A stretch of 64,000 nt of DNA. Source: Escherichia phage vB_EcoS_ESCO40. The notes beneath the pieces are model-generated. The model was not told the DNA's origin. It worked only from the letters and a program-made list of their open reading frames with translations, and made no database searches. The stretch lies in the sequence record NC_106514.1. One strand, written 5' to 3'. Positions within the stretch are counted from its first letter, which is position 1. Every line of letters starts with the position of its first letter. This document shows, piece after piece, positions 1-29,253 of the stretch. Position numbers and translations under genes: made by a program.

Positions 1-28
1 ATAACCGCCCTCCCTATAACCGCCCTGT
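1..28. repeat. tandem direct repeat (ataaccgccct x2)
   Basis: 11-mer ataaccgccct at 1-11 and 18-28 inside an ORF-free 420 bp. Confidence 0.5.
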
Positions 29-235
29 ATAGGAAAACCGGCCTAGGATATTTATAGCAGGAGAGAAACTGCCCTAGAATGTGAGAGTTTTCCTAGAAAC
101 TTAGGAGTCTACTAGAAAGTGTTGTGCCATCCTAGTAGATGGGCGGCAACAGGTGTATCATCTTGAATGTAAATTATGCGGTCAAAAGTTTTACTTTTAT
201 TTTAAATATAAGATCCCCCAGGATTGGAAGAGATG

Positions 236-360
236 CTCCACCCCTGGGATACGGATTGCGTGAGATGGTACAAAACTTCTGAAGATTTCCCTAGCCCTCC
301 GACAAGCTACGGGGGAAATAGAAGTTTCCCATCCACCATCCGTATCCGGGTGGATCTCTT
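236..360. repeat. imperfect long-range inverted repeat
   Basis: ctccacccctgggatacggatt (236-257) is a near reverse complement of ccatccgtatccgggtggatc (338-358); CTAG-containing motifs recur in 40-140. Confidence 0.45.
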
Positions 361-420
361 TATTCTATGTTATTTCATAGAGTTATTATAACATGCAGAA
401 ATCATAACGTCAAGTAGAGT

Positions 421-1311
421 TTATTCATCGAACATGATATTTCCTTTCATTCCCATCTCTGCATACTCCATGAGTTCTTTGATGGACCTCACGGGGTAAT
501 CTACTTTACTGAAGTTATCATAGATCTTACATGAACTCTCGTATAACTCGTTAGGTATCTGCAATTTGTTATCTGTTAGCTTCTCATAACATGCTGAAGA
601 ACTTGTACCCTCAAACAGAACTGCAATAACTGCTGCTATTTGTTTAGTAAGCTCATCTGCTCCTAGAATAACTCTATTAATAGCAATCGTTACCTCATGC
701 TTAGGTTTCACTGGTGGAAGAATAGGTTTAAGATCCTTAGGTAAAGGTTCTGTTCCTAGGAATCCTTCTTTTGTGCGGAACCAATAGTTATCTAGGTCAG
801 ATATCGTCTTAGACTTATTCCAAATAGTGAAGCAGGGTTTATTTCCTTCACGATCTCTGTATTCACGAATTGGAAGATAATGATCAGGAAATGAATTAAG
901 TGCATCATGCATCGGTGAGCCTGTCTTTTTAAAGGGCAAACCATACAACTCATTATAATTCATAACTTCATCTTCATAAACATGGAAATCTTTATATGCT
1001 GGAAGATTAAACCATTCCTGAAGTGAATGAACTGCAAAACGTTGTGCCCAAGCATGCATCACTAGAACTCTATATTCTTTTACTTCATCTTTTGGAGAAG
1101 TACCTTTAGCTGTCCTAGCTGACCGAATACAGAACATCTCAACAACACGTTTCTCATTTAAAGAGAGTTCAGAATAACAACGTTCATGGCAACCTTCTAG
1201 CATTTCTAGAAGTTCACGTAGTTTCTCTACATCGACCGGTGGAAAAGGTCTTTCTTCAACTGCGAATTTACCAGTTACACCTTTTGGTTTTCTATTACTA
1301 TAAAATCCCAT
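421..1311 (-). CDS. hypothetical protein (296 aa)
   Basis: Long ORF, stop/start overlap with next gene (ATGA at 1311); no motif recognised. Confidence 0.6.
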   Translation of the reverse strand: MGFYSNRKPKGVTGKFAVEERPFPPVDVEKLRELLEMLEGCHERCYSELSLNEKRVVEMFCIRSARTAKGTSPKDEVKEYRVLVMHAWAQRFAVHSLQEWFNLPAYKDFHVYEDEVMNYNELYGLPFKKTGSPMHDALNSFPDHYLPIREYRDREGNKPCFTIWNKSKTISDLDNYWFRTKEGFLGTEPLPKDLKPILPPVKPKHEVTIAINRVILGADELTKQIAAVIAVLFEGTSSSACYEKLTDNKLQIPNELYESSCKIYDNFSKVDYPVRSIKELMEYAEMGMKGNIMFDE

Positions 1312-1925
1312 TAATTACCTCTCTTATCCTCGTCAATAACAGCTCCCAACGCCTCCACAATAGCATCTTCTAAGCTTCCATGTTTACTAGGATTATTAAA
1401 ATGAATAGTACAAACAGAACCCCTAGAAACTCCAGCATCCGCAGGTGCTACGCTTCGCATATCAGATTCAAAAGCTTCTTGGGTATGTTTTAACTGTACA
1501 GAAGGCCCATAATCTTCACCAACTCGATATGAGGAATTATTTTCTATAACGCCACCGCATGGAACATTGTGCAAATCCGACGTTATTTTAGGACTGTTCC
1601 ACATTGTAATTGGCCCTGACTGCCATGGATCTCTAATAGTTACTGGAGTACTAGGGCGGTTCACCTCAGCCTTCACGAGTTTATAACCAGCATCTATTAA
1701 TGCATTAATAAGGTTATCAGCTGGAATGCGAGCCTTGCCAAAAATCTTACGAGCGTTGTTGAGCTTACCTTCAAAATCTTTACATGCTTTAATATTAGTG
1801 TGTGCAAAGGTTAGCTCCATAGATTTGAACTGTACAGTAGCAGTTAAATCTTTAAAGCTATAATCCCACGTATTCAGTTCATGATCTGGTACTACTTGAA
1901 TAGATTGTTGTGCATATAAAGTCAT
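1311..1925 (-). CDS. hypothetical protein (204 aa)
   Basis: ORF overlapping both neighbours by 1 nt, typical translational coupling. Confidence 0.6.
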   Translation of the reverse strand: MTLYAQQSIQVVPDHELNTWDYSFKDLTATVQFKSMELTFAHTNIKACKDFEGKLNNARKIFGKARIPADNLINALIDAGYKLVKAEVNRPSTPVTIRDPWQSGPITMWNSPKITSDLHNVPCGGVIENNSSYRVGEDYGPSVQLKHTQEAFESDMRSVAPADAGVSRGSVCTIHFNNPSKHGSLEDAIVEALGAVIDEDKRGN

Positions 1926-2110
1926 TATTTATTCTCCAGTTTGTCTAATAGCTTATGAGCTGCTAGATTATATTGTTTAACCTCACGGTTAAGGATTTGG
2001 TTCTCACACTTTAACTCTAAATTCTTATTATTAAGAATATTGCAGATTAGTAGAAGTGCTAGTATAACTAGTAGGGAACCTACGAGCATTAAAAGAAAAA
2101 GAGTTTCCAT
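1925..2110 (-). CDS. small membrane protein (61 aa)
   Basis: Hydrophobic N-terminus LFLLMLVGSLLVILALLLI; coupled to neighbours. Confidence 0.45.
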   Translation of the reverse strand: METLFLLMLVGSLLVILALLLICNILNNKNLELKCENQILNREVKQYNLAAHKLLDKLENK

Positions 2111-2343
2111 TATTTAATTCCCATGTAACGTTTGAGATACGTGATGAAGTCTTCTGTTGTATGTTCTACGCTACCCTGAACCACAAACAACTTTAAAGCC
2201 TCACGCTGTAATTTAAGAGCAGCTAACTCACCACGTAATTTTGTTATATCTTCCGCTAGTTCTCTAGCTCTGCGCATAATAGCAAATGATACAAATGTTA
2301 CAATAAATAACATAACTGCTAAAATAATTACTATGATCTCCAT
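2110..2343 (-). CDS. small membrane protein (77 aa)
   Basis: TM-like segment IIVIILAVMLFIVTFVSFAI. Confidence 0.45.
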   Translation of the reverse strand: MEIIVIILAVMLFIVTFVSFAIMRRARELAEDITKLRGELAALKLQREALKLFVVQGSVEHTTEDFITYLKRYMGIK

Positions 2344-2621
2344 ATTAACATCCAGCTCTTATCATATATTTGGGCATGCTCTATTAATTCATTTATTGAT
2401 GTAGAATTATCGTAGATACCCTCTAGTAAACGTTTTCTGTCAAATTTATCAACCAAATACTCTGTGTCATTTATTACTACCCTATACAGCTCTGGAACTA
2501 GGGGGTGTTTGTTTGGTATTGGGCGACTGCTTATGTCTATTTCATTATATCCCCACGTTGTTTTAAATAGTTTGTTACTAAGTGCTGCTAGTGGGTTTGA
2601 CCATACAATATAGCTACTCAC
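2331..2621 (-). CDS. hypothetical protein (96 aa)
   Basis: ORF in gene chain. Confidence 0.5.
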   Translation of the reverse strand: MSSYIVWSNPLAALSNKLFKTTWGYNEIDISSRPIPNKHPLVPELYRVVINDTEYLVDKFDRKRLLEGIYDNSTSINELIEHAQIYDKSWMLIWRS

Positions 2622-3060
2622 TACTTATCTCCATTCTTAGCTTTGAAAACTTATTATACCAAACTATATGATTATCGTCAATTACAAATTTATGGTAACA
2701 TGCTGGTACGGTATAAATTCCATAATCCGTGACACGCTGCACAACCTTGTGTGCACACAGTCGACAACCATGCCCTTCTAAATGAGATCTAGCAGTTTGC
2801 CAGTAATAACCATCATGATCTGGACAATAAATCTCGACTTGCTGCTGCATTGTTTTATAATTTACACGCTCATACCCAAAGAAAGCCCCATGAGCTGCAA
2901 CGGCTTTCTTGATAAATATAAGGTTTAGTGCTTCTTGTTGAAAGTCGGGATGTAGCTGCTTAATCTTAGTTCTATTAATAGATCCATCCGATTTGATGAA
3001 CCTATTTATTGGAAAGTTGTTAGCTTCCTCGATTAATAATTCATTTACTTTCTCTCTCAT
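2614..3060 (-). CDS. hypothetical Cys/His-containing protein (about 148 aa)
   Basis: ORF track gives 2614-3162; I place the start at the ATG at 3060, directly after the stop of the upstream 67-aa gene; start uncertain. Confidence 0.45.
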   Translation of the reverse strand: MREKVNELLIEEANNFPINRFIKSDGSINRTKIKQLHPDFQQEALNLIFIKKAVAAHGAFFGYERVNYKTMQQQVEIYCPDHDGYYWQTARSHLEGHGCRLCAHKVVQRVTDYGIYTVPACYHKFVIDDNHIVWYNKFSKLRMEISSE

Positions 3061-3061
3061 A

Positions 3062-3265
3062 TTAGATACTCTCACAACTAAGGTGGAAACATTCGTAAGC
3101 ATCCCCAGTAAACTCTTTATCTTGTAGTAAACACTTAGCCTGGTCTTCCGGTACTCCAGCATCTAATAATTGTTGTTTATTTGGCTTTTCAGCGAATACT
3201 TTTACAAAATACTCACCATCTTGATTATACTCATTTATATCTCTAGTAAGGACATATACTTGCAT
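3062..3265 (-). CDS. hypothetical protein (67 aa)
   Basis: RBS AAGGAAC 5 nt before ATG; preceded by terminator hairpin. Confidence 0.5.
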   Translation of the reverse strand: MQVYVLTRDINEYNQDGEYFVKVFAEKPNKQQLLDAGVPEDQAKCLLQDKEFTGDAYECFHLSCESI

Positions 3266-3283
3266 TTGAAGTTCCTTGAAAAC

Positions 3284-3314
3284 ATAAAAGGCCAGAACAA
3301 TTAAGTCCTGGCCT
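3284..3314 (-). terminator. intrinsic terminator hairpin
   Basis: aggccag / ctggcct stem followed on minus strand by U-rich tract. Confidence 0.5.
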
Positions 3315-3321
3315 CCTAAAA

Positions 3322-3693
3322 TTAATGAAGTTGTTTACCACTTCTTAACATAGTGGCCGTTTCCATAAGACCTAGCGTAGCATCACGCTTATTGATCTGT
3401 TTACCAAGTTCATCAGTACGTTTACTGATGTAAGCATTAATAGCCATATTCATAGCTGTAGCGAGATCTTCTTTGGTTATCTCTTCATCATCTAAAGCTA
3501 ATTTAGCCAAAGAATCAAATGTGCTAGAGAGTCCTATAAGATCTGAGGTTTCTCCAGCCAAAATAGGATTAATATTATCTACTGTTACTTCTAGCATGGA
3601 GTTGACAATATCTTCACCATCTATTAGACCAGTTTCAATATTACTCTCCCACTCCTTCATCTGCTCCAATAATGGATTTTTCTTTTCTGTCAT
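3322..3693 (-). CDS. hypothetical acidic protein
   Basis: ORF 3322-3759 in track; RBS CAGGAAACC precedes internal ATG at 3693 (MTEKK...). Confidence 0.45.
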   Translation of the reverse strand: MTEKKNPLLEQMKEWESNIETGLIDGEDIVNSMLEVTVDNINPILAGETSDLIGLSSTFDSLAKLALDDEEITKEDLATAMNMAINAYISKRTDELGKQINKRDATLGLMETATMLRSGKQLH

Positions 3694-4102
3694 GGTAGAG
3701 GTTTCCTGTGTCAGTCGGTAAGAAGGATGATTGCGTTTTAGGTGGATGTTGCTTAGCAATCCAGTTAAGAATCAGCACGCGACTGGGAACAATATCGGTG
3801 TTATACCAAAAATCGTGAACCCATTGACGAGCATCTTCAAACTTACCAAATTTATATGCTTTCTTAAACAATTCAAATCCAAAACAATCTGGTGTAAAGT
3901 CTACTTCTCGGTATTGAATTACTTTAGAACCAGTTAGGTCTTGGATCGCTGCATTAATTTCTGTATGCGAGAATTTTGTTTCATGAAACTTATTAAAGAA
4001 TCGGTAGTTGAAGCGTCCGTTCGTTTCGACAAATAACTGGATGAAGAGATCGTTAAATTGGTTATCAAACCAGTAATTCTGTAGTTGTTGTAGTGCTGTC
4101 AT
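3641..4102 (-). CDS. hypothetical protein (153 aa)
   Basis: ORF. Confidence 0.5.
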   Translation of the reverse strand: MTALQQLQNYWFDNQFNDLFIQLFVETNGRFNYRFFNKFHETKFSHTEINAAIQDLTGSKVIQYREVDFTPDCFGFELFKKAYKFGKFEDARQWVHDFWYNTDIVPSRVLILNWIAKQHPPKTQSSFLPTDTGNLYHDRKEKSIIGADEGVGE

Positions 4103-4299
4103 TTACGAACCCCGTTAATCGCCATAATGATGCCTTCATACATAAAAGGAAGTAACCCAGAAGTATAGAATATATTTTCTGTTATTCCTAGATGTCGAAA
4201 AAGTATATTAAACAATGCTGTTAGAAATACAACCTGAGGCAGTAATACAAAATACTCAGTTACAATCTTTGGTGCCTGATAAACAAGACGTTTTATCAT
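4099..4299 (-). CDS. small membrane protein (66 aa)
   Basis: Hydrophobic segments; 4-nt overlap with upstream gene. Confidence 0.4.
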   Translation of the reverse strand: MIKRLVYQAPKIVTEYFVLLPQVVFLTALFNILFRHLGITENIFYTSGLLPFMYEGIIMAINGVRK

Positions 4300-4398
4300 T
4301 GTTTTTAAGTCTCCTTATTACTTTGGCCTGCTCCACAATAATGAAAACTGCGAGCACTAATAGTGCTATTAGCCCCGCAGTAATTGGTACTAGATCAA

Positions 4399-4728
4399 TC
4401 ATGGGAGACGCCATACATAATTAGCTGTCTGTAGAACCTTAGGTGTGTCATCATGGTACATTACTACAGACTTTGGTGAATAACTATCAGCTAGTTCTTT
4501 ACGAATCATCTTACATTCTTCACCAGTATCGATATTTTTAACTATCACTTTCATATTAAGAGGTGTTAATACAGAAAGCGGTTTCCAGGAGTCCTCAATC
4601 TCAATTCCTACCTTTTTCTCGATTACCGTGAGAACTTCTAGTGTATCATCTGGAATACTAATATTATTATTATTCACAAACTGTAATATCTCATGTAAGG
4701 TATTTAATTCATTAAAATTAAGCTTCAT
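4399..4728 (-). CDS. hypothetical protein (109 aa)
   Basis: ORF. Confidence 0.5.
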   Translation of the reverse strand: MKLNFNELNTLHEILQFVNNNNISIPDDTLEVLTVIEKKVGIEIEDSWKPLSVLTPLNMKVIVKNIDTGEECKMIRKELADSYSPKSVVMYHDDTPKVLQTANYVWRLP

Positions 4729-4963
4729 CTTTAAGAATATCCTCTACCATATCACAGGACTGTTGCAATTCGTCAGCAATGCGCTTAACATCTGTTTTTG
4801 TTACTTTACCGATTAACATCACCAGTAACATAGAAAGTATAATAAGTGGAACTGGGATAACAAATAGTGCTACCTTAACTACATTCTTTGGTGCCCATGT
4901 ATGGTACTTAGTAACTAGAACTCCCACCACGATTAGATAAAATGCTAGAATAAACATCATCAT
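4718..4963 (-). CDS. membrane protein (81 aa)
   Basis: Two TM-like segments. Confidence 0.5.
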   Translation of the reverse strand: MMMFILAFYLIVVGVLVTKYHTWAPKNVVKVALFVIPVPLIILSMLLVMLIGKVTKTDVKRIADELQQSCDMVEDILKDEA

Positions 4964-5241
4964 TTTTTAATCTCCGTGATTATCTGTGTACGCATTACTT
5001 TAGCAGGTAATTTATTATTCCCAACTATTGCTTCTATACTATTTAGTTTTTCCTTAAGAATATCCGAGCGTCTCTGGGCTATTTCAATATCTTGCTCTTG
5101 CTCTAGCAAACGGTGGTGTAGTCCATCATTAGTACTAAGCATACTTTCCATGTTTTTTCGTGCATTCACAATCCCAATAACTCCGCCAATCGCTACTAGT
5201 GTAGTAAGAACTAGTAACCCAATAAGAATTTCTGTAATCAT
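4960..5241 (-). CDS. membrane-anchored coiled-coil protein (93 aa)
   Basis: N-terminal TM segment LIGLLVLTTLVAIGGVIGIV. Confidence 0.5.
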   Translation of the reverse strand: MITEILIGLLVLTTLVAIGGVIGIVNARKNMESMLSTNDGLHHRLLEQEQDIEIAQRRSDILKEKLNSIEAIVGNNKLPAKVMRTQIITEIKK

Positions 5242-5774
5242 TTATTTAATTCCTCTAAAGTAGGTAAGGGTCTTGTATGATCAAAAGTTTCTATAACAGC
5301 GTTAGACCCATGTAGTTCTAAACGTAGTTCATTAGCTCTTTGAACTGCCAACTCTAAATCTAAATACCTAAAGTAGCCTCCGTGTACTGTAATACTTTCG
5401 GCGCTTCTGACCTGGACTCTCCATTGTTGTCGATCTTTTTTCCAGGTAACTCCTAAGTACCCCGAATTAGATTGAGCGATTTTGCTGCGATTATTCTCTT
5501 GGGACGTACAATCTTTTAAACTACACCATCTATTATCTTTTCTTATATTATTTAAGTGGTGTACTAGATTTGGAATATATCCCTCCATGTACAAAAAGGC
5601 TAATCTATGTGCTGCATATCTTTTTCTATTTATTCCAATAAATATATAACCATCCTTATCAGGACTACCCGCAATACTACCTGCTTTACCCCGCCCTCTA
5701 CTGACTTTCCTTATAAACTCGCCCGTTTCCGGGCGGTATTCAAATAATTCTTTTAATCTTTCTTGTGTTATCAT
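5238..5774 (-). CDS. HNH homing endonuclease with AP2-like DNA-binding domain
   Basis: HNH motif NLVHHLNNIRKDNR...; paralogous to the gene at 19718-20233 (shared N-terminus ...TQ..LK....Y.P.TGEF). Confidence 0.7.
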   Translation of the reverse strand: MITQERLKELFEYRPETGEFIRKVSRGRGKAGSIAGSPDKDGYIFIGINRKRYAAHRLAFLYMEGYIPNLVHHLNNIRKDNRWCSLKDCTSQENNRSKIAQSNSGYLGVTWKKDRQQWRVQVRSAESITVHGGYFRYLDLELAVQRANELRLELHGSNAVIETFDHTRPLPTLEELNK

Positions 5775-6046
5775 TTTTTCTTTAATTGCTTGACTTCACG
5801 CTCAAAGCTAGCTGCTCGGCGTTCTGCCACTGCTTGATGCTCCTTAGCAAATCGTGCCTCTTGTTTCGCTAAGTTAAAGGCCATAGCGTTCTTATTAAGA
5901 GAATCATACATCTTTTTCATTGCTGGGATGGACATTTTCATCAGTTGCCCCTCAAATCCTTGCATGTCGAGGAGAATTGCTAATACGTTAGCCATTTCAG
6001 TCTTGGTAAGGTTAGAGGCGTCGAAGTCTTTAGTCATGTTTTCCAT
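5771..6046 (-). CDS. hypothetical protein (about 91 aa)
   Basis: Track start 6064 lies in the conserved promoter leader; RBS GAGAGGAAA precedes ATG at 6046. Confidence 0.45.
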   Translation of the reverse strand: MENMTKDFDASNLTKTEMANVLAILLDMQGFEGQLMKMSIPAMKKMYDSLNKNAMAFNLAKQEARFAKEHQAVAERRAASFEREVKQLKKK

Positions 6047-6078
6047 TAGAATTTCCTCTCTCATTAATTTATGAACTT

Positions 6079-6107
6079 ATTATACAGAATTTTAAGGCTT
6101 AAAGCAA
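6079..6107 (-). promoter_or_regulatory. sigma70-type early promoter (T5 family)
   Basis: minus-strand TTGCTT-17-TATAAT with A-rich upstream tract. Confidence 0.6.
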
Positions 6108-6124
6108 CTGAATTTTTTAATTAC

Positions 6125-6556
6125 TTACCAATCGTTAACAACACCAGAGAACTCAGAAGCAAAAACTTTTTCAAATTTTTCTGCAATTTCAGGATGATCC
6201 TTACAGATCAACTCAATACACGCTTCTGGAGTCATTCCTTCGTCTTCAGGATCACCGTAATATTTGTCCCAAAGATCATCAGGGATGATGTGCTCTGCCA
6301 AATCTTGGAAAGAGATTAGCTGATAACGTTCTGCTTCCTCGGGGATAAGGATTTCACAAAGATCTTTATCTATATCACTATGATAATCAGCAATTAGCAG
6401 GGCATTGCAAGCATGACACTCCCAGACCATTAATCGTTCAGAGATAGGGTTAGACTTATCCTGAACGTAAGATTGAAACAGGGTTCTGAAAGTAGCTTTA
6501 ACTTGTTCAAACTTATCTGCTGCTGCAAAAACTAGAGCTTTATCAACTTTGTTCAT
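6125..6556 (-). CDS. hypothetical acidic protein (143 aa)
   Basis: ORF behind promoter and RBS GAAGGAAAC. Confidence 0.55.
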   Translation of the reverse strand: MNKVDKALVFAAADKFEQVKATFRTLFQSYVQDKSNPISERLMVWECHACNALLIADYHSDIDKDLCEILIPEEAERYQLISFQDLAEHIIPDDLWDKYYGDPEDEGMTPEACIELICKDHPEIAEKFEKVFASEFSGVVNDW

Positions 6557-6586
6557 TTTGTTTCCTTCTCATCAATTTATAAAGTA

Positions 6587-6615
6587 ATTATACAGAAACT
6601 TAGGCATTTTAGCAA
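6587..6615 (-). promoter_or_regulatory. sigma70-type early promoter (T5 family)
   Basis: TTGCTA-17-TATAAT on minus strand. Confidence 0.6.
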
Positions 6616-6715
6616 ATAAAACTTTTAATTAAAATGCCTAGTCCTGTACCAATAGCAATACAAATGATTATACATATTGCTACTAATTGTATTACTCGTT
6701 TAATAATAGCCATGA

Positions 6716-7237
6716 TTAGACATTTAACATCCAGCTAGTTTTATCATGGGAAGTATACCTACCACTCATGATGTCCTCCAGTCGTACTGGTGATTTTGCA
6801 TACTCAACGCAAACGTTAATATAACGAGGGTCTCCCATTAACTCAAAGTGAGTATGCCCATGTAAGTTCTTCTTGCCCCTTAACTCTCCTGGGTGTACTG
6901 GAGCATGGGAAAGCCAGAAGTTTTTATATTTAACTAGTGATTGTACATTATCTACAACTCCTACTAAGTCTTTGAAAGATAATCCTTCTCGCTCTAAGTC
7001 GTGATTCCCCAAAACTAGTGTAGTTCTAACATTGCTAAAGAGTTTTCCGAACTTCTCCAAACCATTTCTAGATACAAATGCATCTCCTAAAATATAAAAT
7101 ACTGTACGCTTATCTTTCATGGATGTAATAGTATCCATAATAAATTCATCATGCTCTTCCATAGTAGAGAAGATTGGTCTGAATTTAGTAATATTTGCAT
7201 GTCCTAAATGGAGATCACTCCAAAAGCAAACTTTCAT
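6716..7237 (-). CDS. metallophosphoesterase (calcineurin-like)
   Basis: Motifs DLHLGH, GDAF, GNHD, GHTH. Confidence 0.7.
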   Translation of the reverse strand: MKVCFWSDLHLGHANITKFRPIFSTMEEHDEFIMDTITSMKDKRTVFYILGDAFVSRNGLEKFGKLFSNVRTTLVLGNHDLEREGLSFKDLVGVVDNVQSLVKYKNFWLSHAPVHPGELRGKKNLHGHTHFELMGDPRYINVCVEYAKSPVRLEDIMSGRYTSHDKTSWMLNV

Positions 7238-8113
7238 TTAAAGAATCCTCTGTACACCACAGCTATCTTCTCGAAGCGTGGTAAATGTTGTGATTTTCCC
7301 AGTTTCATCATTAACCTGCGCAATCGTCAACTGCCCGTTGAAAACACCGCCAGTATCAAGATAAACACGGTTTTTATAAAGAAGCGGGTAAGGTACTCCA
7401 GTATGTCCGTGAAACACGAAATCTACTCCTTTAACTTCTGGCACTTCTACCATGTATTTTTCTTTAAACCCAGAATAACGCTGGAAATAGGGGTGTTCCT
7501 CACCATTTTTAGACAAGAGGAAGCCTATCTCTTGGATTACATCTCGATCCCATAAATATGGTTCAACATAGTATCCAGGATGGTCATGTGGGTCTTCCTT
7601 AGCTGCTTCTACTTGTGCAATAAGGTTATCCCATACTGGGGTTTCCACTTCGTTACCGCATTCTTTGTACGTAAAAGGTACACCACCATGAACAACACCA
7701 TATTTCTTGCCACGATGCAGCACAGTCAGAAATACTGGAAGTTTTTCAGCCATGTCTTCGGCAATATTTTTAATGGTATCTGCATCTAGTTCATTCATAG
7801 CCCACATACCACCGTTATACATCCAGTTAGCCCAATCTCCTACAATCATAAACTGGTCATGATTTCCACGGACACTGATAAAGCGTGGGTTATACAGGAA
7901 TTTAGCTAGAACTTGTAGATTCTGCGCGCCTCGGTCAATTAAATCCCCTACACATACAACGCAATCTTTCTTGCCGTTATATCCAGCTAATTTCAACGCA
8001 TCTTCTAGCAAATCGTTGCACCCATGAATATCACCAACAAAGAATAAGTTAACATCATCAGGTACTACTAGTGTTTTATGCACATTAAATTCTTTTTTCA
8101 TAATTATTCCCAA
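7238..8113 (-). CDS. Ser/Thr protein phosphatase (PPP family)
   Basis: Motifs GDIHG, GDLIDRG, GNHD. Confidence 0.8.
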   Translation of the reverse strand: MGIIMKKEFNVHKTLVVPDDVNLFFVGDIHGCNDLLEDALKLAGYNGKKDCVVCVGDLIDRGAQNLQVLAKFLYNPRFISVRGNHDQFMIVGDWANWMYNGGMWAMNELDADTIKNIAEDMAEKLPVFLTVLHRGKKYGVVHGGVPFTYKECGNEVETPVWDNLIAQVEAAKEDPHDHPGYYVEPYLWDRDVIQEIGFLLSKNGEEHPYFQRYSGFKEKYMVEVPEVKGVDFVFHGHTGVPYPLLYKNRVYLDTGGVFNGQLTIAQVNDETGKITTFTTLREDSCGVQRIL

Positions 8114-8349
8114 ATAACATTTAAAATAGTTGTACCATAGTTATTAGATAGTTTGAGAGTATAACCCTCTTTATAAATGGCTTTTATGGCCTCATAGCTA
8201 ATTTCATCACGGTTAAACTGCACATAAGAACCACCACATTCTACAGAAGATATAATCCGTCTTTTAACGTATCTATACGGTTTCTTTCTGCTATTGAGAA
8301 GAGCAGCTCTATTAACTCTAGCTAAATGTTTTGCTTGCTCTGCTAACAT
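8104..8349 (-). CDS. hypothetical protein (81 aa)
   Basis: ORF. Confidence 0.5.
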   Translation of the reverse strand: MLAEQAKHLARVNRAALLNSRKKPYRYVKRRIISSVECGGSYVQFNRDEISYEAIKAIYKEGYTLKLSNNYGTTILNVIWE

Positions 8350-8353
8350 TTAA

Positions 8354-8731
8354 TTATCTCCAATGGTTGGTATGTTTTTCAGCCTCTTCATCATTAGGCT
8401 CAAATACTACGTGGCAATCTACAGCTTCCCAAAAGGCTTCACGGATTAAGGAGTTTTTAGCTGAGATATCTAACTCTTCCCACTCCTCCAAAGTCTCTAA
8501 GTCTGTATCAACTTCGGTATCACAGCCAACCAAACCCAGAGACACAACAAGAGTAAGACGATCTTCACGTTCTTCGGGATAAACCTCAGCATACTCCCAA
8601 GCAGCTTCTTCAACATAATATTGTTGTTCCTTTTCTGGAAGTGACTTATACTTTTCTTCTGTAATACCCATCTCAACAGCGCGAGTACCACAAACTACGT
8701 TATTATTAATAATTAGATATGCATAGTTCAT
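8354..8731 (-). CDS. hypothetical acidic protein (125 aa)
   Basis: ORF behind promoter. Confidence 0.55.
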   Translation of the reverse strand: MNYAYLIINNNVVCGTRAVEMGITEEKYKSLPEKEQQYYVEEAAWEYAEVYPEEREDRLTLVVSLGLVGCDTEVDTDLETLEEWEELDISAKNSLIREAFWEAVDCHVVFEPNDEEAEKHTNHWR

Positions 8732-8788
8732 TGGAATACCCCTATTTCTTGTAGTGCGTAGATAGCCTTCTCATCAATCTATACAAAT

Positions 8789-8817
8789 ATTATATCAAAA
8801 TTTTTAGCAAAAAGCAA
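8789..8817 (-). promoter_or_regulatory. sigma70-type early promoter (T5 family)
   Basis: TTGCTT-17-TATAAT. Confidence 0.6.
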
Positions 8818-8858
8818 GTAAAATAAAAGCCTGATCCGCTAAGATCAGGCTTGGTTTA

Positions 8859-9149
8859 TTAATCTTCTGGATTATCATCCAGGAAGTTTTTAATAGCTTC
8901 GTGCATAGTTTCCTTACGAAGCTGACGTCCAATCAAAATATGGTTAGCTTCTACTCGACCATTAGGTAAGCGATCTGCCAGAACTACTACAGGAACTTGG
9001 CGTACACCAAATTTCTGCATTAATTCTGTATTATCAGTCTCTTTATGGACTTCCAAATTATAGTCATTGACTACTTTATCAAATACTGGCTCAAACATTT
9101 TGCAAGGATTGCAAGTAGAACCTTTCAATAGATATACTAATTTACTCAT
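8859..9149 (-). CDS. thioredoxin/glutaredoxin-like protein
   Basis: CxxC motif CNPC near N-terminus, about 96 aa. Confidence 0.55.
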   Translation of the reverse strand: MSKLVYLLKGSTCNPCKMFEPVFDKVVNDYNLEVHKETDNTELMQKFGVRQVPVVVLADRLPNGRVEANHILIGRQLRKETMHEAIKNFLDDNPED

Positions 9150-9573
9150 AGTTATTAATGGCCTCTAAGAAGTTTTTCATAGTTTTTACGGTTGCGGTGC
9201 TCAGATCAAGATTTACACCCAAACACTCGGTTAATGCTTCCTGATAAGGAGCCTTTAATCTGCCTTCTGGGACTTCTACCTTCTTATATTCTTTATTTTT
9301 GACCTTTTTAATCATAGTCTCTAGTACAAGAAGTGGTAATTTAGCACCTTCAATATCAGTACCCAAAAGTTCAGTTAAAATTTTATTAAGATCAAGACGA
9401 GTTAACTTTTTGCCCTTAGACATAGATGCACCTACCTTTGTATCAATAGATTTTTCCGCTTTCTTTTCGAGCTTTTTGTACTCAGGAGAGTCATGATCAC
9501 GGAGTGCAATGTTTAGCTCGTAATGTGGTATACGAAAATGTTCCGCCATTTGAGTGTAGAAACGATCAGACAT
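9142..9573 (-). CDS. hypothetical protein (143 aa)
   Basis: ORF behind conserved leader and promoter. Confidence 0.5.
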   Translation of the reverse strand: MSDRFYTQMAEHFRIPHYELNIALRDHDSPEYKKLEKKAEKSIDTKVGASMSKGKKLTRLDLNKILTELLGTDIEGAKLPLLVLETMIKKVKNKEYKKVEVPEGRLKAPYQEALTECLGVNLDLSTATVKTMKNFLEAINNYE

Positions 9574-9606
9574 AATATATACCTCTCTTAACTAATTTAT
9601 GTATAT

Positions 9607-9635
9607 ATTATATAATAACTAGGGCTAAAAGTCAA
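9607..9635 (-). promoter_or_regulatory. sigma70-type promoter
   Basis: TTGACT-17-TATAAT on minus strand. Confidence 0.55.
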
Positions 9636-9648
9636 CTACTTTTTTATC

Positions 9649-10065
9649 TTAATCTACTGCATGTATAAATCTTTTCCTAACTAGATACATAGTTATTGGG
9701 TAAATTGAGTACATAAGTATAGGGGAGAAAAGGGTGAAATACGCTGTAACTCCCCCAGCTAACATCAAAGGTATTAATGCTAGAGTAAGGGCCATAAGAA
9801 TCATACCGAATGAAACAGCCAAAGCTATGGATATAGGATTCTCTAGTTCCATCCATAACCAACAATATTTCGTATCTCTATGGCAATTGCATTTACAAAC
9901 GCCGAATGAACCCATAATTATATACTCTAGTCCGTGAATAACCTTTATTAATAAGCTATTTCGGGTAGTTAATGCAATGATAGTAAAGACTATCATTAAA
10001 ACGAATACTACTAGACTTATTTTCCAGATACCTAGCAGCATCATAGTGAATAGTTCTGCAAACAT
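9649..10065 (-). CDS. integral membrane protein (138 aa)
   Basis: Multiple hydrophobic segments. Confidence 0.5.
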   Translation of the reverse strand: MFAELFTMMLLGIWKISLVVFVLMIVFTIIALTTRNSLLIKVIHGLEYIIMGSFGVCKCNCHRDTKYCWLWMELENPISIALAVSFGMILMALTLALIPLMLAGGVTAYFTLFSPILMYSIYPITMYLVRKRFIHAVD

Positions 10066-10104
10066 GGCTTTCTCCTATCTTCAAAAATTATTAAAGCCCC
10101 CTTT

Positions 10105-10131
10105 GCCTAAAAAGGCGGGAATATTCCCGCC
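10105..10131 (-). terminator. intrinsic terminator
   Basis: GGCGGG-AATATT-CCCGCC hairpin followed by U-run on minus strand, just after the endolysin stop. Confidence 0.6.
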
Positions 10132-10142
10132 TAAGTTATTAA

Positions 10143-10556
10143 TTAAACTAGTTCGACATGACCGCCATCATAGGTACCACGTTTTATTTCATCGTGATAG
10201 TCTCCCGAAGCATTCCAATCAGCACCAAAACGAAGTTTAATGCCTAGCTCTTTACCCGCTTGTTCAAAAGCCTTTTTAACTGCCCAAAATGCTTCTAAGT
10301 CATTCCAATCAATTTTGCCATTAATATATGGAGCAAAATCAATAGCATCCCCAGTAATATGTTTGCTTTTACTGGGATCTTTTAGAAATGAAGTACCGTT
10401 AGCAATGTTCTGGGCACTTTGTGCTACTGTACGAACACCTTGCACGATTGTGAAATCATACGGAGATAATTCTAAAGCCCTACGAGCTACTTTTTGTAGT
10501 TCGGGCTTAACGGTAGCTAATTGTTTTTCGCTATTTTTACCAAATTTAAAACTCAT
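10143..10556 (-). CDS. endolysin, L-alanyl-D-glutamate peptidase (137 aa)
   Basis: Size and zinc-peptidase-like H/D/H residues consistent with the T5-type endolysin. Confidence 0.75.
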   Translation of the reverse strand: MSFKFGKNSEKQLATVKPELQKVARRALELSPYDFTIVQGVRTVAQSAQNIANGTSFLKDPSKSKHITGDAIDFAPYINGKIDWNDLEAFWAVKKAFEQAGKELGIKLRFGADWNASGDYHDEIKRGTYDGGHVELV

Positions 10557-19722: not shown

Positions 19723-20233
19723 CTATAAACTCTTCATATACTGCAAATTCCCCGAATAACTCACGTCTAAGATTATTAGCTTTATTTACAGCTTTATCTA
19801 GTTCAGTAAAAAGTCCACCATAATGGAGCTTGCCATCTTTACGTACTTCTATTTTCCACTTATTTCTTTGCTTATGCCAAGTTACATTTTTATACCCAGA
19901 GGTATTATCTACCCTTAATTTAGCATTAGCTTGATTCTGTGATACAGTGGCTATTCGTAAGTTATCCCATTTAGTATTGGACTTATCTTGATCCTTGTGG
20001 TCAATTAGATCTGGTATTTTTCCAGTCATGTATAAGAATGCTAGACGATGTGCTAACCAGCTAGTATTTCCTAGAGTTATCTTCCAATAGCCTAGTTCAT
20101 TAATAAATCCCGCTCTAGTTCCAGCATATTTACTATTCCATTGACTATCTAAATCAGATCTATATTTCCAGAAAAACTCTCCAGTATCTGGTTTATATAA
20201 CAACACGGATTTTAATTCTTGTTGTGTTAGCAT
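19718..20233 (-). CDS. HNH homing endonuclease with AP2-like domain (freestanding, inside tRNA array)
   Basis: HNH motif DLIDHKDQDKSNTKWDNLR; track start 20395 would run through a tRNA gene, so start placed at ATG 20233. Confidence 0.7.
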   Translation of the reverse strand: MLTQQELKSVLLYKPDTGEFFWKYRSDLDSQWNSKYAGTRAGFINELGYWKITLGNTSWLAHRLAFLYMTGKIPDLIDHKDQDKSNTKWDNLRIATVSQNQANAKLRVDNTSGYKNVTWHKQRNKWKIEVRKDGKLHYGGLFTELDKAVNKANNLRRELFGEFAVYEEFIG

Positions 20234-24678: not shown

Positions 24679-24756
24679 TGGTGGCTCCCCGAGGATTCGA
24701 ACCTACGTACCTTCCGGTTATGAGCCGGGTGCTCATACCATATGAGCTTGAGAACC
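24679..24756 (-). tRNA. tRNA with CAU anticodon (elongator Met or Ile2)
   Basis: Loop CTCATAA, acceptor GGTTCTC/GGGAGCC with two G-U pairs, A73; T-stem weak (3 bp). Confidence 0.45.
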
Positions 24757-27084: not shown

Positions 27085-27279
27085 ATGTGTTGCAGAAAAT
27101 CTGTTTCGTGCTGCCCAATGCCTGTAGCATGTTGTTGCTCTCCAGCAATGTTTACACAAATACCGGCGTTCAATCCCTTTGCCTTTAAGCCTATTCTTAT
27201 CCTGCCCCCTAGAGTAGATTTTCAGTCAAGATTGGCCTCCCGTATGGGTGGTTGCTGTAACAAGAGTATATGGTTCTAA
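27085..27279 (+). CDS. Cys-rich small protein (64 aa)
   Basis: RBS AAGGAGG; N-terminus MCCRKSVSCCPMPVACCC, C-terminal GGCC. Confidence 0.5.
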   Translation: MCCRKSVSCCPMPVACCCSPAMFTQIPAFNPFAFKPILILPPRVDFQSRLASRMGGCCNKSIWF

Positions 27280-27295
27280 AGAACCAATAATAAAA

Positions 27296-27329
27296 AGCCC
27301 CTAGTCGAAAGACTTAGGGCTTTTCTTTT
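27296..27329 (+). terminator. intrinsic terminator of the island
   Basis: Hairpin with GAAA loop followed by TTTTCTTTT. Confidence 0.55.
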
Positions 27330-27339
27330 ATCTTAAATA

Positions 27340-27375
27340 CAGAAAAGCCCTGCGCTCTCCAGGGAACGCAGGGCT
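27340..27375 (-). terminator. intrinsic terminator (convergent)
   Basis: Perfect 9-bp stem agccctgcg / cgcagggct with U-run on minus strand after the SPFH gene. Confidence 0.6.
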
Positions 27376-27399
27376 TACTTCGAATATTACGTGTGGGTA

Positions 27400-28347
27400 T
27401 TACTTGTTACGCATATCCATAATCATCTGGCCATCGTAACCAGTGCCAACTACTGTTTGCGGTACACCACCTTGATACTTCTGAGCACGAATCATTTCAA
27501 CCTCTAGTTGCTTCCAGCGGATCATCTCAGGAGTAATAGTACGTTGCAGAGCGGCGTTAGCTTCAGCTTCTTTCTTAGCTGCATACAGTTTGGCATCTGC
27601 ATCACGTTCGTTTGCAATAGCTTGGTTGTTACGAGCTTCACGATCTGCTTCTGCTTGTTTAACCTTCTGCTGTGCTTCTTGTTCAACACGAGCCAATTCA
27701 GCTTTCGCAGCATTAACTTGTTCTTCACGAACTTTGGTATTCTGTACCTGTTCCATGATTACAGGCGGCAAAGTAATATCCTGAAGGAACACTTGCTTAA
27801 CTGTGTAACCATAAGGGCGTGCGTACTCTTCAACTTCCTGTTGAATTGCAGTTTGCAATTGTGCTTGAATTTTAGCATCAAACAAATCTTGTGCTTTAGG
27901 TACAGACTTACCGAACTCACGAATAGTGGATAACAGCTTCTCAGTTACATATTTATCTAACGCCTGATCCTGAGTACCTGCATTAATACGGTTGATCGGT
28001 GCCTTAGAACCATCAAACTGCAACATAACAGTCAGGTCAACAGTGGATTTAAACTTATCCTGGCTGGGAACCTGAAGTTTATCTAATTTTACAGCAATGT
28101 CTTTTGTACTAAAAGTATCGAAAGATGCAAATGGATTTACAAGATGGAAACCAGGTAATACTGGGTTAGGATCTACTTTACCCAGAAATGTTTGGGTTTT
28201 AACCGTACCATCAGAAACAATAGTATATGAATTAAAAGCTAGGATTAAACCTGCTAAACCAACTACAGCACCAATCCCCCAACGTTTAATAGTACGAATT
28301 ACTTTCTGCTCAGAAGTTAGTTCTTTCATATTTTTAGTATTAAACAT
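27400..28347 (-). CDS. SPFH/band-7 (HflC/prohibitin-like) membrane protein
   Basis: N-terminal TM then long charged coiled-coil with Ala/Glu/Gln repeats typical of SPFH proteins. Confidence 0.65.
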   Translation of the reverse strand: MFNTKNMKELTSEQKVIRTIKRWGIGAVVGLAGLILAFNSYTIVSDGTVKTQTFLGKVDPNPVLPGFHLVNPFASFDTFSTKDIAVKLDKLQVPSQDKFKSTVDLTVMLQFDGSKAPINRINAGTQDQALDKYVTEKLLSTIREFGKSVPKAQDLFDAKIQAQLQTAIQQEVEEYARPYGYTVKQVFLQDITLPPVIMEQVQNTKVREEQVNAAKAELARVEQEAQQKVKQAEADREARNNQAIANERDADAKLYAAKKEAEANAALQRTITPEMIRWKQLEVEMIRAQKYQGGVPQTVVGTGYDGQMIMDMRNK

Positions 28348-28456: not shown

Positions 28457-29253
28457 TTTAAGTATTTTTAAGAACTCTCGTAAAAACTCTTAAAAATACA
28501 GACGATACCGGGAGAGTCATAAGTCTCACTCATTAAGTATTTCAAGACAAAATACAGTAACGTCTATTATTTTCCAGTTTAAGTCAGGGTGACTTAGTGG
28601 TTATGTCCTGCGGTATATTGAGGACTCGGTTAGGCTTGGGGTCATGACTTCCCGCCTTTTGCTGCTACTCAACAGGAGTTATCGCGAATTACCTGTGCTA
28701 TTGTGCACCATTAGTGACATCTCTCATGTCAGCATTTCCCACTTTGTGGATAGCTTGAAAAACTACTCCGATATGGAGAAAGAACTTCACTATCCTAGAA
28801 TACCTTCTAAAGTTCTTCTTTAGCCTGGACATAGTTAAATCGTAATAAAACTATTCAGCAGACTGGTTGGTTAGTCTGGAACCAACTACCACGTGGTTTA
28901 GGCAGTGCGCAACTAACCTCGGAAGCTTTTACGTTAAAAGCATCAGTTATCCAGTTCTTACCGACCGTAGGATTCGAACCTACATCTTCCACCAGTTACG
29001 GCTTGATAATACCAATTATACTAGGACGGCGGTGTTACTACATAAGTGATTTCCACACCCCACTATTTATAAATTAGAGAAGAGTTTAGGGGAGAGGTTT
29101 CAGACGCCTCATTTTACACGTTCTAGCCACTAACCGGGATTGCCGCCCCCTGTGTACTAGTTTTACAACTAACCCACCGACTCTATTCAATGCGCTCCGG
29201 TTGGGATTCTGCACTCAGCGTAATCGGCTCGCTGTTCCCTAATTTATGAATAT
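28457..29253 (-). other. promoter-driven ORF-free region (candidate structured RNA(s) or degenerate tRNAs)
   Basis: About 0.8 kb without an ORF of 60 aa or more, downstream of promoter 29254-29282 and upstream of tRNA-Arg. Confidence 0.4.
28955..29030 (-). ncRNA. tRNA-like element with perfect T-arm but imperfect acceptor
   Basis: GTAGG-TTCGAAT-CCTAC T-arm; acceptor pairing needs a bulge; anticodon not assignable. Confidence 0.25.

What the first reader, a model, noticed from the sequence alone, without database searches (positions are those of the whole stretch)
1..420. Repeat-rich ORF-free region at the window start
420 bp with a tandem 11-mer (ataaccgccct x2), several CTAG-centred motifs and an imperfect inverted repeat around 236-360. 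T5-type genomes are known to have a repeat-rich region bounding the first-step-transfer DNA; this may be part of that boundary or another cis-acting site.
Basis: partly seen in the sequence, partly recalled or inferred. Interest (0 to 1): 0.45.

Follow-up and report, generated by a model that had tools for sequence, protein, structure and literature searches.

The report
Unannotated structured RNA gene beside T5 repeat
The stretch is the non-coding DNA just outside the left terminal repeat of a T5-like phage: its first ~80 bases are the tail of a known repeat region, and the inverted repeat looks like an undescribed small structured RNA gene that comes in at least seven interchangeable versions.

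Summary
The window is a T5-like phage. [quoted passage not shown]

Window 1-83 is the tail of the known T5 "Repeat Region 3", which holds the injection-stop signal. It carries an AACCGCCC box cluster, and DRD repeat copy 9 is missing.

Window 91-167 is a near-invariant core, matched in all 436 T5-like records. Its function is unresolved.

The inverted repeat (211-360) is the strongest predicted fold in the 64 kb. On the minus strand it sits between a near-consensus extended -10 sigma-70 promoter (413-385) and a terminator-like hairpin with a U-tract (231-204). That predicts a ~175-nt RNA.

Relatives carry at least seven discrete versions here (A-G). Each has the same promoter, 5' hairpin, long hairpin and terminator.
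- Version B shows three compensatory pairs.
- All one-sided changes keep pairing through G-U on the minus strand.
- The minus strand always folds better.

No Rfam family, GenBank annotation or retrievable paper describes it.

Expression and function are untested. My best guess is a protein-binding or RNase III-processed non-coding RNA.

The parts
1..83 (.). Right-hand tail of the T5 'Repeat Region 3' (the region that holds the injection stop signal), lying in unique DNA about 177-260 bp right of the LTR end. DRD copy 9 is missing between positions 83 and 84.
   Evidence: Alignment with T5 and AKFV33. DRD 13-mer positions in T5, AKFV33 and the window. AY587007 annotation of DRD copies 1-9 and of the LTR end. 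Davison preprint.
1..26 (+). Two exact copies of ATAACCGCCCT with period 15. Together with degenerate copies at 34-44 and 65-75 they form a cluster of AACCGCCC boxes.
   Evidence: The pair is at least 90% conserved in 31 distinct relatives. It is not annotated in any T5 record.
43..135 (.). Cluster of five CTAG-centred motifs: GGCCTAGGA, CCCTAGAA, TCCTAGAA, ACTAGAA, TCCTAGTA.
   Evidence: The motifs at 93, 112 and 132 lie in the near-invariant core.
91..167 (.). Near-invariant non-coding core shared by T5-like phages. Function unresolved; probably a cis-acting DNA site.
   Evidence: All 436 records match window 84-225 at least in part, and in the third group (SP15, DT57C, EPS7 and others) the match stops at about window 167. 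Per-position conservation in 31 distinct sequences. The exact 20-mer is found only in T5-like contigs, plus one 2.6-kb MAG contig that carries version B.
168..204 (.). AT-rich spacer. It is conserved among versions A, B and C, and replaced by a different AT-rich stretch in versions D-G.
204..231 (-). Terminator-like hairpin (231-214) followed by UCUUAUAUUU. Predicted 3' end of the RNA.
   Evidence: In version F (SP15, BF23) the equivalent element is a canonical hairpin followed by UUUUUCUUU.
229..359 (-). Long imperfect hairpin of about 58 bp. This is the variable 'version A' cassette body.
   Evidence: 64 pairs; one-sided changes are all G-U/G-C; paired 1-nt deletions in INF11. (top structural outlier in 64 kb). 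(37 records, 95.5-98.7% identical).
364..381 (-). Small 5' hairpin of the predicted RNA (CUAUG...CAUAG). Transcription start predicted at about 378.
   Evidence: Every other version has an equivalent small 5' hairpin.
385..413 (-). Sigma-70 promoter: TTGACG, 17 nt, TGtTATAAT (extended -10). It starts 8 nt after the stop codon of the upstream gene.
   Evidence: 11 of 12. It is one of only two sites in 64 kb with at least 11 of 12 matches plus TGn, against 0.27 expected. The hexamers, TGn and spacing are conserved across versions A-G while the spacer sequence varies.
421..1311 (-). Context: T5.018-family gene of 296 aa and unknown function. There is no terminator between it and the RNA unit.
   Evidence: phrog_8583; no Pfam hit; 43% identity to T5.018.

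Best explanation
Window 1-420 is the intergenic DNA between the left terminal repeat of a T5-like phage and its first early gene. It has three parts.

1. Window 1-83 is the outer tail of the known repeat-rich region that holds the injection stop signal. It carries AACCGCCC boxes and CTAG motifs. These are most likely protein-binding DNA sites (inferred).

2. Window 91-167 is a near-invariant 77-bp core. It is probably also a cis-acting DNA site tied to the repeat boundary (inferred, function unknown).

3. Window about 204-413, on the minus strand, is a self-contained gene for a ~175-nt non-coding RNA. An extended -10 sigma-70 promoter is followed by a small 5' hairpin, a ~58-bp imperfect hairpin and an intrinsic-terminator-like 3' end. 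Host RNA polymerase alone should transcribe it. By position it is the first promoter of the second-step-transfer DNA to enter the cell.

What the sequence data show:
- The promoter, hairpins and terminator are present in every version of the locus.
- Base pairing is maintained by compensatory and wobble-compatible substitutions.
- The locus exists as at least seven discrete, internally conserved versions, which appear to be exchanged between phages at conserved flanks.
- In versions D, F and G the apical half of the hairpin is swapped on a conserved basal stem.

What I infer: the RNA works through its long double-stranded shape rather than by antisense pairing. It would be a protein-binding decoy or scaffold, and/or an RNase III substrate. 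It also closes the 3' end of the leftward early operon. I read the variable apical domain as a specificity determinant under diversifying selection. That reading is the least certain part. Expression and function are untested.
For: Location:
- The closest relative is AKFV33, at 91% identity over 3 kb.
- Window position 1 equals T5 10396. The LTR ends 177 bp to the left in T5 and BF23.
- The nine DRD copies map as annotated, in line with the published Repeat Region 3.

Promoter:
- 11 of 12 matches plus TGn at 413-385.
- Only two such sites occur in 64 kb, against 0.27 expected.
- Hexamers and spacing are conserved with a variable spacer in versions A-G.

Structure:
- z = -6.2.
- Top structural outlier in the window.
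- Every version folds into the same three-part architecture, with minus-strand z between -3.8 and -6.8.

Selection on pairing:
- Version B, 12 sequences: 70 pairs, 99.9% of cells paired, 3 pairs changed on both sides, 4 one-sided changes all G-U compatible. Sliding the partners gives 36-46% paired.
- Version A: 64 pairs, one-sided changes all G-U/G-C, plus matching 1-nt deletions on opposite arms in INF11.

Strand:
- The minus strand is more stable than the plus strand in all 8 representatives, by 1.9-14.9 kcal/mol.
- Minus-strand folds hold 44 G-U pairs and no A-C 1x1 mismatches. Plus-strand folds hold 28 G-U pairs and 7 A-C mismatches.

Not coding and not mobile:
- No conserved ORF.
- Single copy per genome.
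- Absent from E. coli genomes and plasmids.

Not described:
- No Rfam hit for any of the six versions tested.
- No feature in three T5 records or in BF23.
- Literature searches found nothing.
Against: - No expression data were available. The promoter and terminator are consensus matches only.
- In version A the U-tract is weak (UCUUAUAUUU).
- Published T5 early promoters are said to carry ATATT in the discriminator (PMC7472727). This promoter has AACTCT.
- The three compensatory pairs in version B all separate the same two clades, so they may reflect few independent events.
- Version A shows no two-sided substitutions, because its copies are 95-99% identical.
- The strand asymmetry is small for versions A and D (4.7 and 1.9 kcal/mol). 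G-T wobbles are also tolerated in single-stranded DNA hairpins.
- No antisense target of 12 nt or more was found in the 64 kb, and no partner protein is known, so the decoy/scaffold function is conjecture.
- About 58 of the 436 records were not assigned to any version.
- The LTR end of this particular phage is not visible in the window.
Confidence: 0.6

Rival explanations
1. The hairpin is only the 3' end of the leftward early operon. It would be an oversized, possibly bidirectional, terminator and/or an RNase III processing and stabiliser site like those between T7 early genes. The promoter-like site would be incidental, or would merely add transcripts with the same 3' end.
For: - There is no terminator between the stop codon at 421 and the hairpin, so operon transcripts must run into it.
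- Terminator-like sites are found on both strands, at 336-353 (+) and 231-214 (-).
- The region separates convergently transcribed blocks: rightward pre-early genes in the LTR and leftward early genes.
- A ~58-bp near-perfect RNA duplex is a textbook RNase III substrate (established knowledge).
Against: - The -35 hexamer, -10 hexamer, TGn and 17-18 nt spacing are kept in all seven versions while the spacer sequence drifts. That is the signature of a promoter in use.
- The order in the direction of transcription is promoter, then hairpins, then terminator. It is not terminator, then promoter.
- Ordinary terminators in this genome are short GC hairpins, for example the tandem pair at about 27.25-27.4 kb.
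- A 130-nt stem with a swappable apical half is far more than termination needs.
Confidence: 0.17
2. The inverted repeat, the conserved core and the boxes act at the DNA level in making genome ends. They would be recognition sites for terminase or another end-processing protein. A snap-back hairpin would help duplicate the terminal repeat from concatemers, as proposed for phage T7, where a promoter (phiOR), a hairpin-forming repeat and the terminal repeat lie in the same order.
For: - The elements lie 177-540 bp from the LTR end.
- The order promoter, inverted repeat, terminal repeat mirrors the T7 arrangement (recalled from the literature, not tested here).
- DRD 13-mers flank the LTR end on both sides.
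- The core 91-167 is more conserved than neighbouring genes.
- Covariation cannot by itself tell RNA from single-stranded DNA.
Against: - Hairpin-primed copying of the repeat, which lies to the left, would need the plus-strand hairpin. The wobble pairs and the energy favour the minus strand in all 8 representatives.
- Each version carries a terminator U-tract and a promoter, which have no role in a DNA hairpin.
- Discrete versions are found in phages of two genera (Tequintavirus and Epseptimavirus). That is unexpected for a site that must match one terminase.
- This rival remains a fair explanation for parts 1-167, but not for the cassette.
Confidence: 0.12
3. The region encodes one or more small proteins, for example the 47-aa ORF at 139-282 or the 55-aa ORF at 224-391 on the plus strand. 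Some automated annotations of relatives suggest this.
For: - Mechanical ORFs exist.
- A few GenBank records place 'hypothetical protein' features here: EPS7 AGC_0017, INF11, PMBT22 and MM-2.
Against: - No ribosome-binding site precedes these starts.
- The ORFs run into the variable cassette and end differently in every version.
- INF11 has three separate 1-nt deletions inside the cassette.
- Most records, including the three curated T5 records, annotate nothing here.
Confidence: 0.03

Closest known systems
T5 'Repeat Region 3' / injection stop signal region (Heusterspreute 1987; Wang 2005; Davison 2015 and bioRxiv 10.1101/866236)
   Same: - Window 1-83 aligns to the last ~95 bp of this region (AY587007 10316-10409).
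- The order of motifs is conserved in T5-like phages.
- It is non-coding and repeat-rich.
   Different: - The window part lies outside the LTR, to the right of the annotated iss (T5 9140-10149) and of the 7.9% nick.
- It has lost DRD copy 9.
- The AACCGCCC boxes and the 91-167 core are not named features.
- Window 84-420 lies beyond the published region altogether.
Enterobacterial 3'UTR-derived small RNAs with their own promoter ('type I', e.g. DapZ, MicL)
   Same: - A sigma-70 promoter sits at the very end of the upstream gene.
- The small RNA shares its intrinsic terminator with the upstream mRNA.
- Size is 100-300 nt.
   Different: - Those RNAs act through a single-stranded seed with Hfq.
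- This RNA is almost wholly double-stranded, and no target was found.
- It is phage-encoded and comes in non-alignable versions.
Bacillus phage phi29 packaging RNA (pRNA)
   Same: - About 174 nt and highly structured.
- Encoded next to the left genome end and transcribed towards that end.
- Relatives keep the fold while the sequence diverges almost completely.
   Different: - No Rfam pRNA match.
- T5 packages with a conventional terminase, and no RNA requirement is known.
- The fold is a simple long hairpin rather than the pRNA three-way junction with interlocking loops.
Adenovirus VA RNA I (viral double-stranded-RNA-like decoy)
   Same: - About 160 nt, mostly duplex.
- Strongly expressed from a host-polymerase promoter.
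- Variable apical stem on a conserved base.
- This is a working model of how a long hairpin RNA can act, by sequestering a host protein.
   Different: - Eukaryotic virus and Pol III transcript.
- No bacterial double-stranded-RNA sensor is implicated here.
- The resemblance is purely functional. It is recalled, not tested.
T7 phiOR promoter plus hairpin-forming repeat beside the terminal repeat (concatemer processing)
   Same: - The order is promoter, inverted repeat, terminal repeat.
- No gene lies downstream of the promoter.
   Different: - The strand preference of the T5-type hairpin is the wrong one for priming synthesis into the repeat.
- A terminator is present.
- The repeat is about 130 nt long and hypervariable.

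Membership tests
T5 Repeat Region 3 / injection stop signal | Maps within AY587007 9194-10409 (NC_005859 9274-10489) | tested here: met
   Window 1-83 aligns to NC_005859 10396 to about 10489. Window 84-420 lies beyond it.
T5 Repeat Region 3 / injection stop signal | Carries the named repeats (DRD 13-mer TGTGCAAATCCGA, DRA, DRB, DRC, IRC'/IRD', DnaA boxes) | tested here: not met
   There is no DRD copy in window 1-420. Copy 9 is deleted, and the only window copy is at 1568-1580. The 11-mer pair is not DRA. DnaA boxes were not searched for with a tool.
T5 Repeat Region 3 / injection stop signal | Lies in the first-step-transfer DNA or LTR and halts DNA injection | tested here: not met
   Position is the part tested. 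By homology to T5 and BF23 the window starts 177 bp outside the LTR, and about 650 bp right of the 7.9% nick and shear point. The injection-stop activity itself cannot be tested with these tools.
Independently transcribed bacterial or phage small non-coding RNA gene | Own promoter, conserved in position across relatives | tested here: met
   TTGACG-17-TGtTATAAT, conserved in versions A-G.
Independently transcribed bacterial or phage small non-coding RNA gene | Intrinsic terminator at the 3' end | tested here: met
   Hairpin 231-214 plus U-rich tail. The element is canonical in version F and weaker in A and D.
Independently transcribed bacterial or phage small non-coding RNA gene | Secondary structure maintained by compensatory change | tested here: met
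   Version B has 3 two-sided and 4 wobble-compatible one-sided changes, with 99.9% of cells paired. In version A only one-sided changes and paired deletions are seen.
Independently transcribed bacterial or phage small non-coding RNA gene | A discrete transcript is detected in infected cells | not testable with these tools
   No transcriptome data are accessible here. The papers found do not report this locus.
Any Rfam 15 family (including 6S RNA, phi29 pRNA, tRNA-like) | Covariance-model match | tested here: not met
   No relevant hit at E <= 10 in window 1-1500, or at E <= 1 in loci that carry versions B-F. Version G was not scanned. At the gathering threshold only tRNAs are found.
Miniature inverted-repeat / REP- or ERIC-like mobile element | Multiple dispersed copies in phage or host genomes | tested here: not met
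   One place per phage record. No match in 5,426 E. coli genomes or 72,556 plasmids.

The most novel reading that the evidence does not exclude
T5-like phages carry a previously unrecognised, cassette-exchanged structured RNA. It would be the first transcript made from the second-step-transfer DNA. It would act as a double-stranded-RNA-like decoy or specificity determinant, for example against a host defence or RNase, or in competition between related phages. Its hypervariable apical stem would be the product of an arms race.
Probability: 0.15. Interest if true: 0.75.

Novelty: new member of a known kind. Interest (0 to 1): 0.55.

Why it matters
T5 is a classical model phage. The DNA around its terminal-repeat boundary has been analysed for decades as a set of cis-acting repeats.

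If the hairpin is a real RNA gene, several things follow:
- T5-like genomes (more than 400 in GenBank) lack an annotation for a conserved transcription unit.
- The first promoter of the second-step-transfer DNA to enter the cell makes an RNA, not a protein.
- The locus offers a natural series of interchangeable versions for testing what a long hairpin RNA does during infection.

The analysis also separates what is already known (the repeat tail) from what is not named (the AACCGCCC boxes and the invariant 77-bp core). That narrows future work on injection stop and end formation.

Tried and rejected
- **Tandem Repeats Finder** on 1-1000 found nothing.
- **tRNA/tmRNA and Rfam searches** gave no relevant hit.
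- **Protein-based locus search** in viral contigs returned only AKFV33.
- **Metagenome scan** with a 20-mer gave two T5-like contigs, both version B, plus three chance matches.
- **Genome-collection scan** gave one small MAG contig.
- **Host or plasmid origin of the cassette** was rejected, with no match.
- **Antisense targets** in the 64 kb: the longest exact complement is 11 nt, which is chance level.
- **Identity of the 11-mer pair.** I first assumed it was 'DRA copies 2/3'. The AY587007 annotation shows it is not.
- **Stem 109-115 / 132-138 inside the conserved core.** One compensatory case (DT57C) is offset by mismatches in T5, saus132 and others, so no conserved structure is claimed.
- **Weak minus-strand promoter-like site at 185-157.** It is not conserved in versions D-G.
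- **Neighbouring proteins** gave no functional clue.
- **Second structural outlier (about 27.2 kb)** is a pair of ordinary terminators.
- **Other two CTAG clusters** share no motif with this one.
- **Literature searches** for a T5 small RNA at this locus found nothing.

Full report
**Identity and position**

The window is a T5-like phage of the family Demerecviridae. The first 3 kb match AKFV33 at 91% identity, and 419 phage records match in all. The 420-bp interval alone matches 436 records.

Alignment with T5 and AKFV33 puts window position 1 at T5 NC_005859 10396. In that record the left terminal repeat (LTR) is 1-10219 and the annotated injection stop signal is 9140-10149. In BF23 the paper (PMC10644984) reports that the repeat ends were determined with PhageTerm. 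There the LTR ends at 9743 and window position 1 maps to 9920. In both phages the window therefore starts 177 bp outside the repeat. The LTR end of this particular phage cannot be seen in the window.

The first real gene is a T5.018-family ORF at 421-1311 on the minus strand.

**The observation**

- The 11-mer ATAACCGCCCT occurs at 1-11 and 16-26. The period is 15, and Tandem Repeats Finder does not call it. With the degenerate copies at 34-44 and 65-75, four of the window's 26 near-matches to AACCGCCC lie in the first 74 bp.
- CTAG occurs five times in 43-132. Only three clusters this dense exist in 64 kb, against 0.28 expected.
- The inverted repeat spans 211-360. Its minus-strand fold has MFE -74.7 kcal/mol and z = -6.2. 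It is the top GC-corrected structural outlier of the whole window, ahead of the tRNA cluster.

**Part 1, window 1-83: a known repeat region**

Davison's analysis defines an untranslated "Repeat Region 3" at AY587007 9194-10409. It overruns the LTR by 270 bp and ends with nine copies of direct repeat D (DRD) (10.1101/866236).

AY587007 coordinates equal NC_005859 coordinates minus 80. The 13-mer TGTGCAAATCCGA occurs exactly nine times in T5 between 9752 and 10489, as annotated. Window 1-83 aligns to the stretch between copies 8 and 9. Copy 9 itself is deleted in this phage.

The 11-mer pair lies at AY587007 10316-10341 and is not one of the named repeats. DRA copies 2 and 3 lie at 10026-10064.

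This piece is nonetheless outside the LTR and outside the annotated stop signal.

**Part 2, window 91-167: an invariant core**

A search with window 84-225 matches all 436 records. In about 180 of them the match stops at window 167.

In 31 distinct sequences, positions 91-167 are mostly 90-100% identical, whereas 27-64 and 76-90 vary. The core contains three of the CTAG motifs. An exact 20-mer from it occurs only in T5-like contigs, plus one small MAG contig that carries version B.

A possible stem (109-115 with 132-138) has one compensatory case but several mismatched ones, so I claim no structure. No ORF is conserved. I take this block to be a cis-acting DNA site of unknown function.

**Part 3, window 204-413, minus strand: a candidate RNA gene**

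Eight nucleotides after the stop codon of the upstream gene lies TTGACG-17 nt-TGtTATAAT (413-385; 11 of 12 matches plus an extended -10). Only two sites of this quality occur in 64 kb, against 0.27 expected.

Downstream on the same strand come three elements:
- a small hairpin at 381-364;
- a ~58-bp imperfect hairpin at 359-229;
- a terminator-like hairpin at 231-214 followed by UCUUAUAUUU.

Together these predict an RNA of about 175 nt.

**Versions of the locus in relatives**

Relatives replace the stretch between the conserved flank and the conserved -10 region with unrelated sequences. I found seven versions.

| Version | Example phages | Records or loci |
|---|---|---|
| A | this window, AKFV33 | 37 records, 95.5-98.7% identical |
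| B | T5 | 141 records |
| C | chee24 | 35 records |
| D, E, F | DT57C; EPS7 and saus132; SP15 and BF23 | 165 records together |
| G | KPP2018, MM-2 | 2 records fetched, plus 2 IMG/VR contigs |

Versions A-F account for 378 of the 436 records.

Every version has the same promoter, with the hexamers, TGn and 17-18 nt spacing kept while the spacer varies. Every version also has a small 5' hairpin, a long hairpin and a terminator. Minus-strand z-scores run from -3.8 to -6.8. In version F the terminator is canonical.

Versions D, F and G share the basal stem (CUCUAGGGGCGAUGAUUAUUACA ... CACGCGCCCC) but have different apical halves. The D hairpin occurs with two different -35/spacer flanks. Each version is found in both Tequintavirus and Epseptimavirus. 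Together these points suggest exchange of the cassette by recombination at the conserved flanks.

**Evidence that pairing is selected, and on which strand**

- Version B, 12 distinct sequences: 70 predicted pairs and 99.9% of cells paired. Three pairs changed on both sides. Four one-sided changes all keep pairing through G-U. Sliding the partners by 1-3 columns drops pairing to 36-46%.
- Version A: variation is low. All one-sided changes are G-U/G-C, and INF11 has lost one base from each of two opposed arms.
- Strand: the minus strand folds better than the plus strand in all eight representatives, by 1.9-14.9 kcal/mol. Minus-strand folds contain 44 G-U pairs and no A-C single mismatches. Plus-strand folds contain 28 G-U pairs and 7 A-C mismatches.

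This fits an RNA read from the minus strand, in agreement with the promoter and terminator orientation.

There are caveats.
- The three compensatory pairs separate the same two clades.
- The asymmetry is small for versions A and D.
- G-T wobbles are also tolerated in single-stranded DNA.

**What it is not**

- It matches no Rfam family, in the window or in loci carrying versions B-F. Version G was not scanned.
- It is not a tRNA or tmRNA.
- It is not a dispersed repeat. There is one copy per genome, and none in E. coli genomes or plasmids.
- It does not appear to code for protein.
- No antisense target of 12 nt or more exists in the 64 kb.
- None of the three T5 records, nor BF23, annotates anything here.
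- The searchable literature does not mention a T5 small RNA at this locus. Subscription-only papers, including Wang et al. 2005, could not be read.

**Mechanism**

Shown from sequence:
- a conserved transcription-unit architecture;
- selection on base pairing;
- discrete exchangeable versions.

Inferred:
- Host RNA polymerase transcribes the unit as soon as this DNA enters the cell.
- By position it is the first promoter of the second-step-transfer DNA.
- No terminator separates it from the upstream gene, so the same hairpins also form the 3' end of the early operon.
- The RNA is almost entirely duplex and no target was found. I therefore favour action through shape, as a protein-binding decoy or scaffold and/or an RNase III substrate, over seed-based antisense regulation.
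- The variable apical stem would be the specificity element.

This functional step is conjecture.

**Rivals**

- *Terminator or stabiliser hairpin only.* This is plausible as a second role, but it does not explain the conserved promoter.
- *DNA-level role in end formation, in the T7 style (promoter, hairpin, repeat).* This is attractive for parts 1-167. For the cassette, hairpin-primed copying into the repeat would need the plus-strand hairpin, whereas the data favour the minus strand.
- *Small proteins.* These are unlikely.

**Verdict**

The main content is a conserved core of unknown function and a candidate, undescribed structured RNA gene with at least seven versions. I rate it a new member of a known kind (a phage small non-coding RNA), of moderate interest pending expression data.

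Noticed in passing
window 1568-1580 (+) and 1654-1661 (-): There is an exact tenth copy of the DRD 13-mer TGTGCAAATCCGA inside the T5.019-homologue coding region. It is conserved at the same place in T5 (12153) and AKFV33 (11429) and is not annotated as a repeat. The window's only other exact AACCGCCC lies 75 bp away. An exact 13-mer is not expected by chance in 64 kb.
   Followed up: partly
window 2681-2653 (-): This is the only other site in the 64 kb with at least 11 of 12 promoter matches plus an extended -10 (TTGACG-17-TATAAT). It lies just upstream of the ORF that starts at 2621, and is likely an early promoter.
   Followed up: no
window 27250-27400 (-): The second strongest structural outlier is two tandem GC-rich hairpins, each followed by a U-run. 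These are ordinary intrinsic terminators in the tRNA region.
   Followed up: yes
window 24682-24756 (-) and 28959-29030 (-): Rfam's tRNA model scores two further tRNA-like genes above its gathering threshold (40.3 and 35.5 bits). ARAGORN did not report them.
   Followed up: no
window 2614-3162 (-): This 182-aa ORF has weak PHROG matches to HNH-type and homing endonucleases. DT57C carries a different homing endonuclease gene right next to its RNA cassette.
   Followed up: no
L022/L045 (DT57C type) versus L044, L049, L059 (FFH1 type): The same version-D hairpin is joined to two different -35/spacer sequences and two different right-hand neighbours. The recombination breakpoint therefore lies inside the conserved -10 block CTATGAGATTATTATAACATG.
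   Followed up: partly
window 421-1311 (-) versus T5.018 and BF23_00019: The gene next to the cassette also varies. It is 43% identical to T5.018 over the first ~200 residues with an unrelated C-terminus, and it is unrelated to the 237-aa neighbour in BF23. The start of the early region is thus a variable island.
   Followed up: partly
window 20041-20115 and 56869-56957: Two other clusters of five CTAG within 100 bp. They share no motif with the cluster at 43-132 and look like coding sequence.
   Followed up: yes
L061 (SABI01000336.1, 'Spirochaetia bacterium' MAG contig, 2589 bp): This contig carries the T5-like core and a version-B cassette. It is probably T5-like phage DNA binned into a bacterial MAG.
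   Followed up: no
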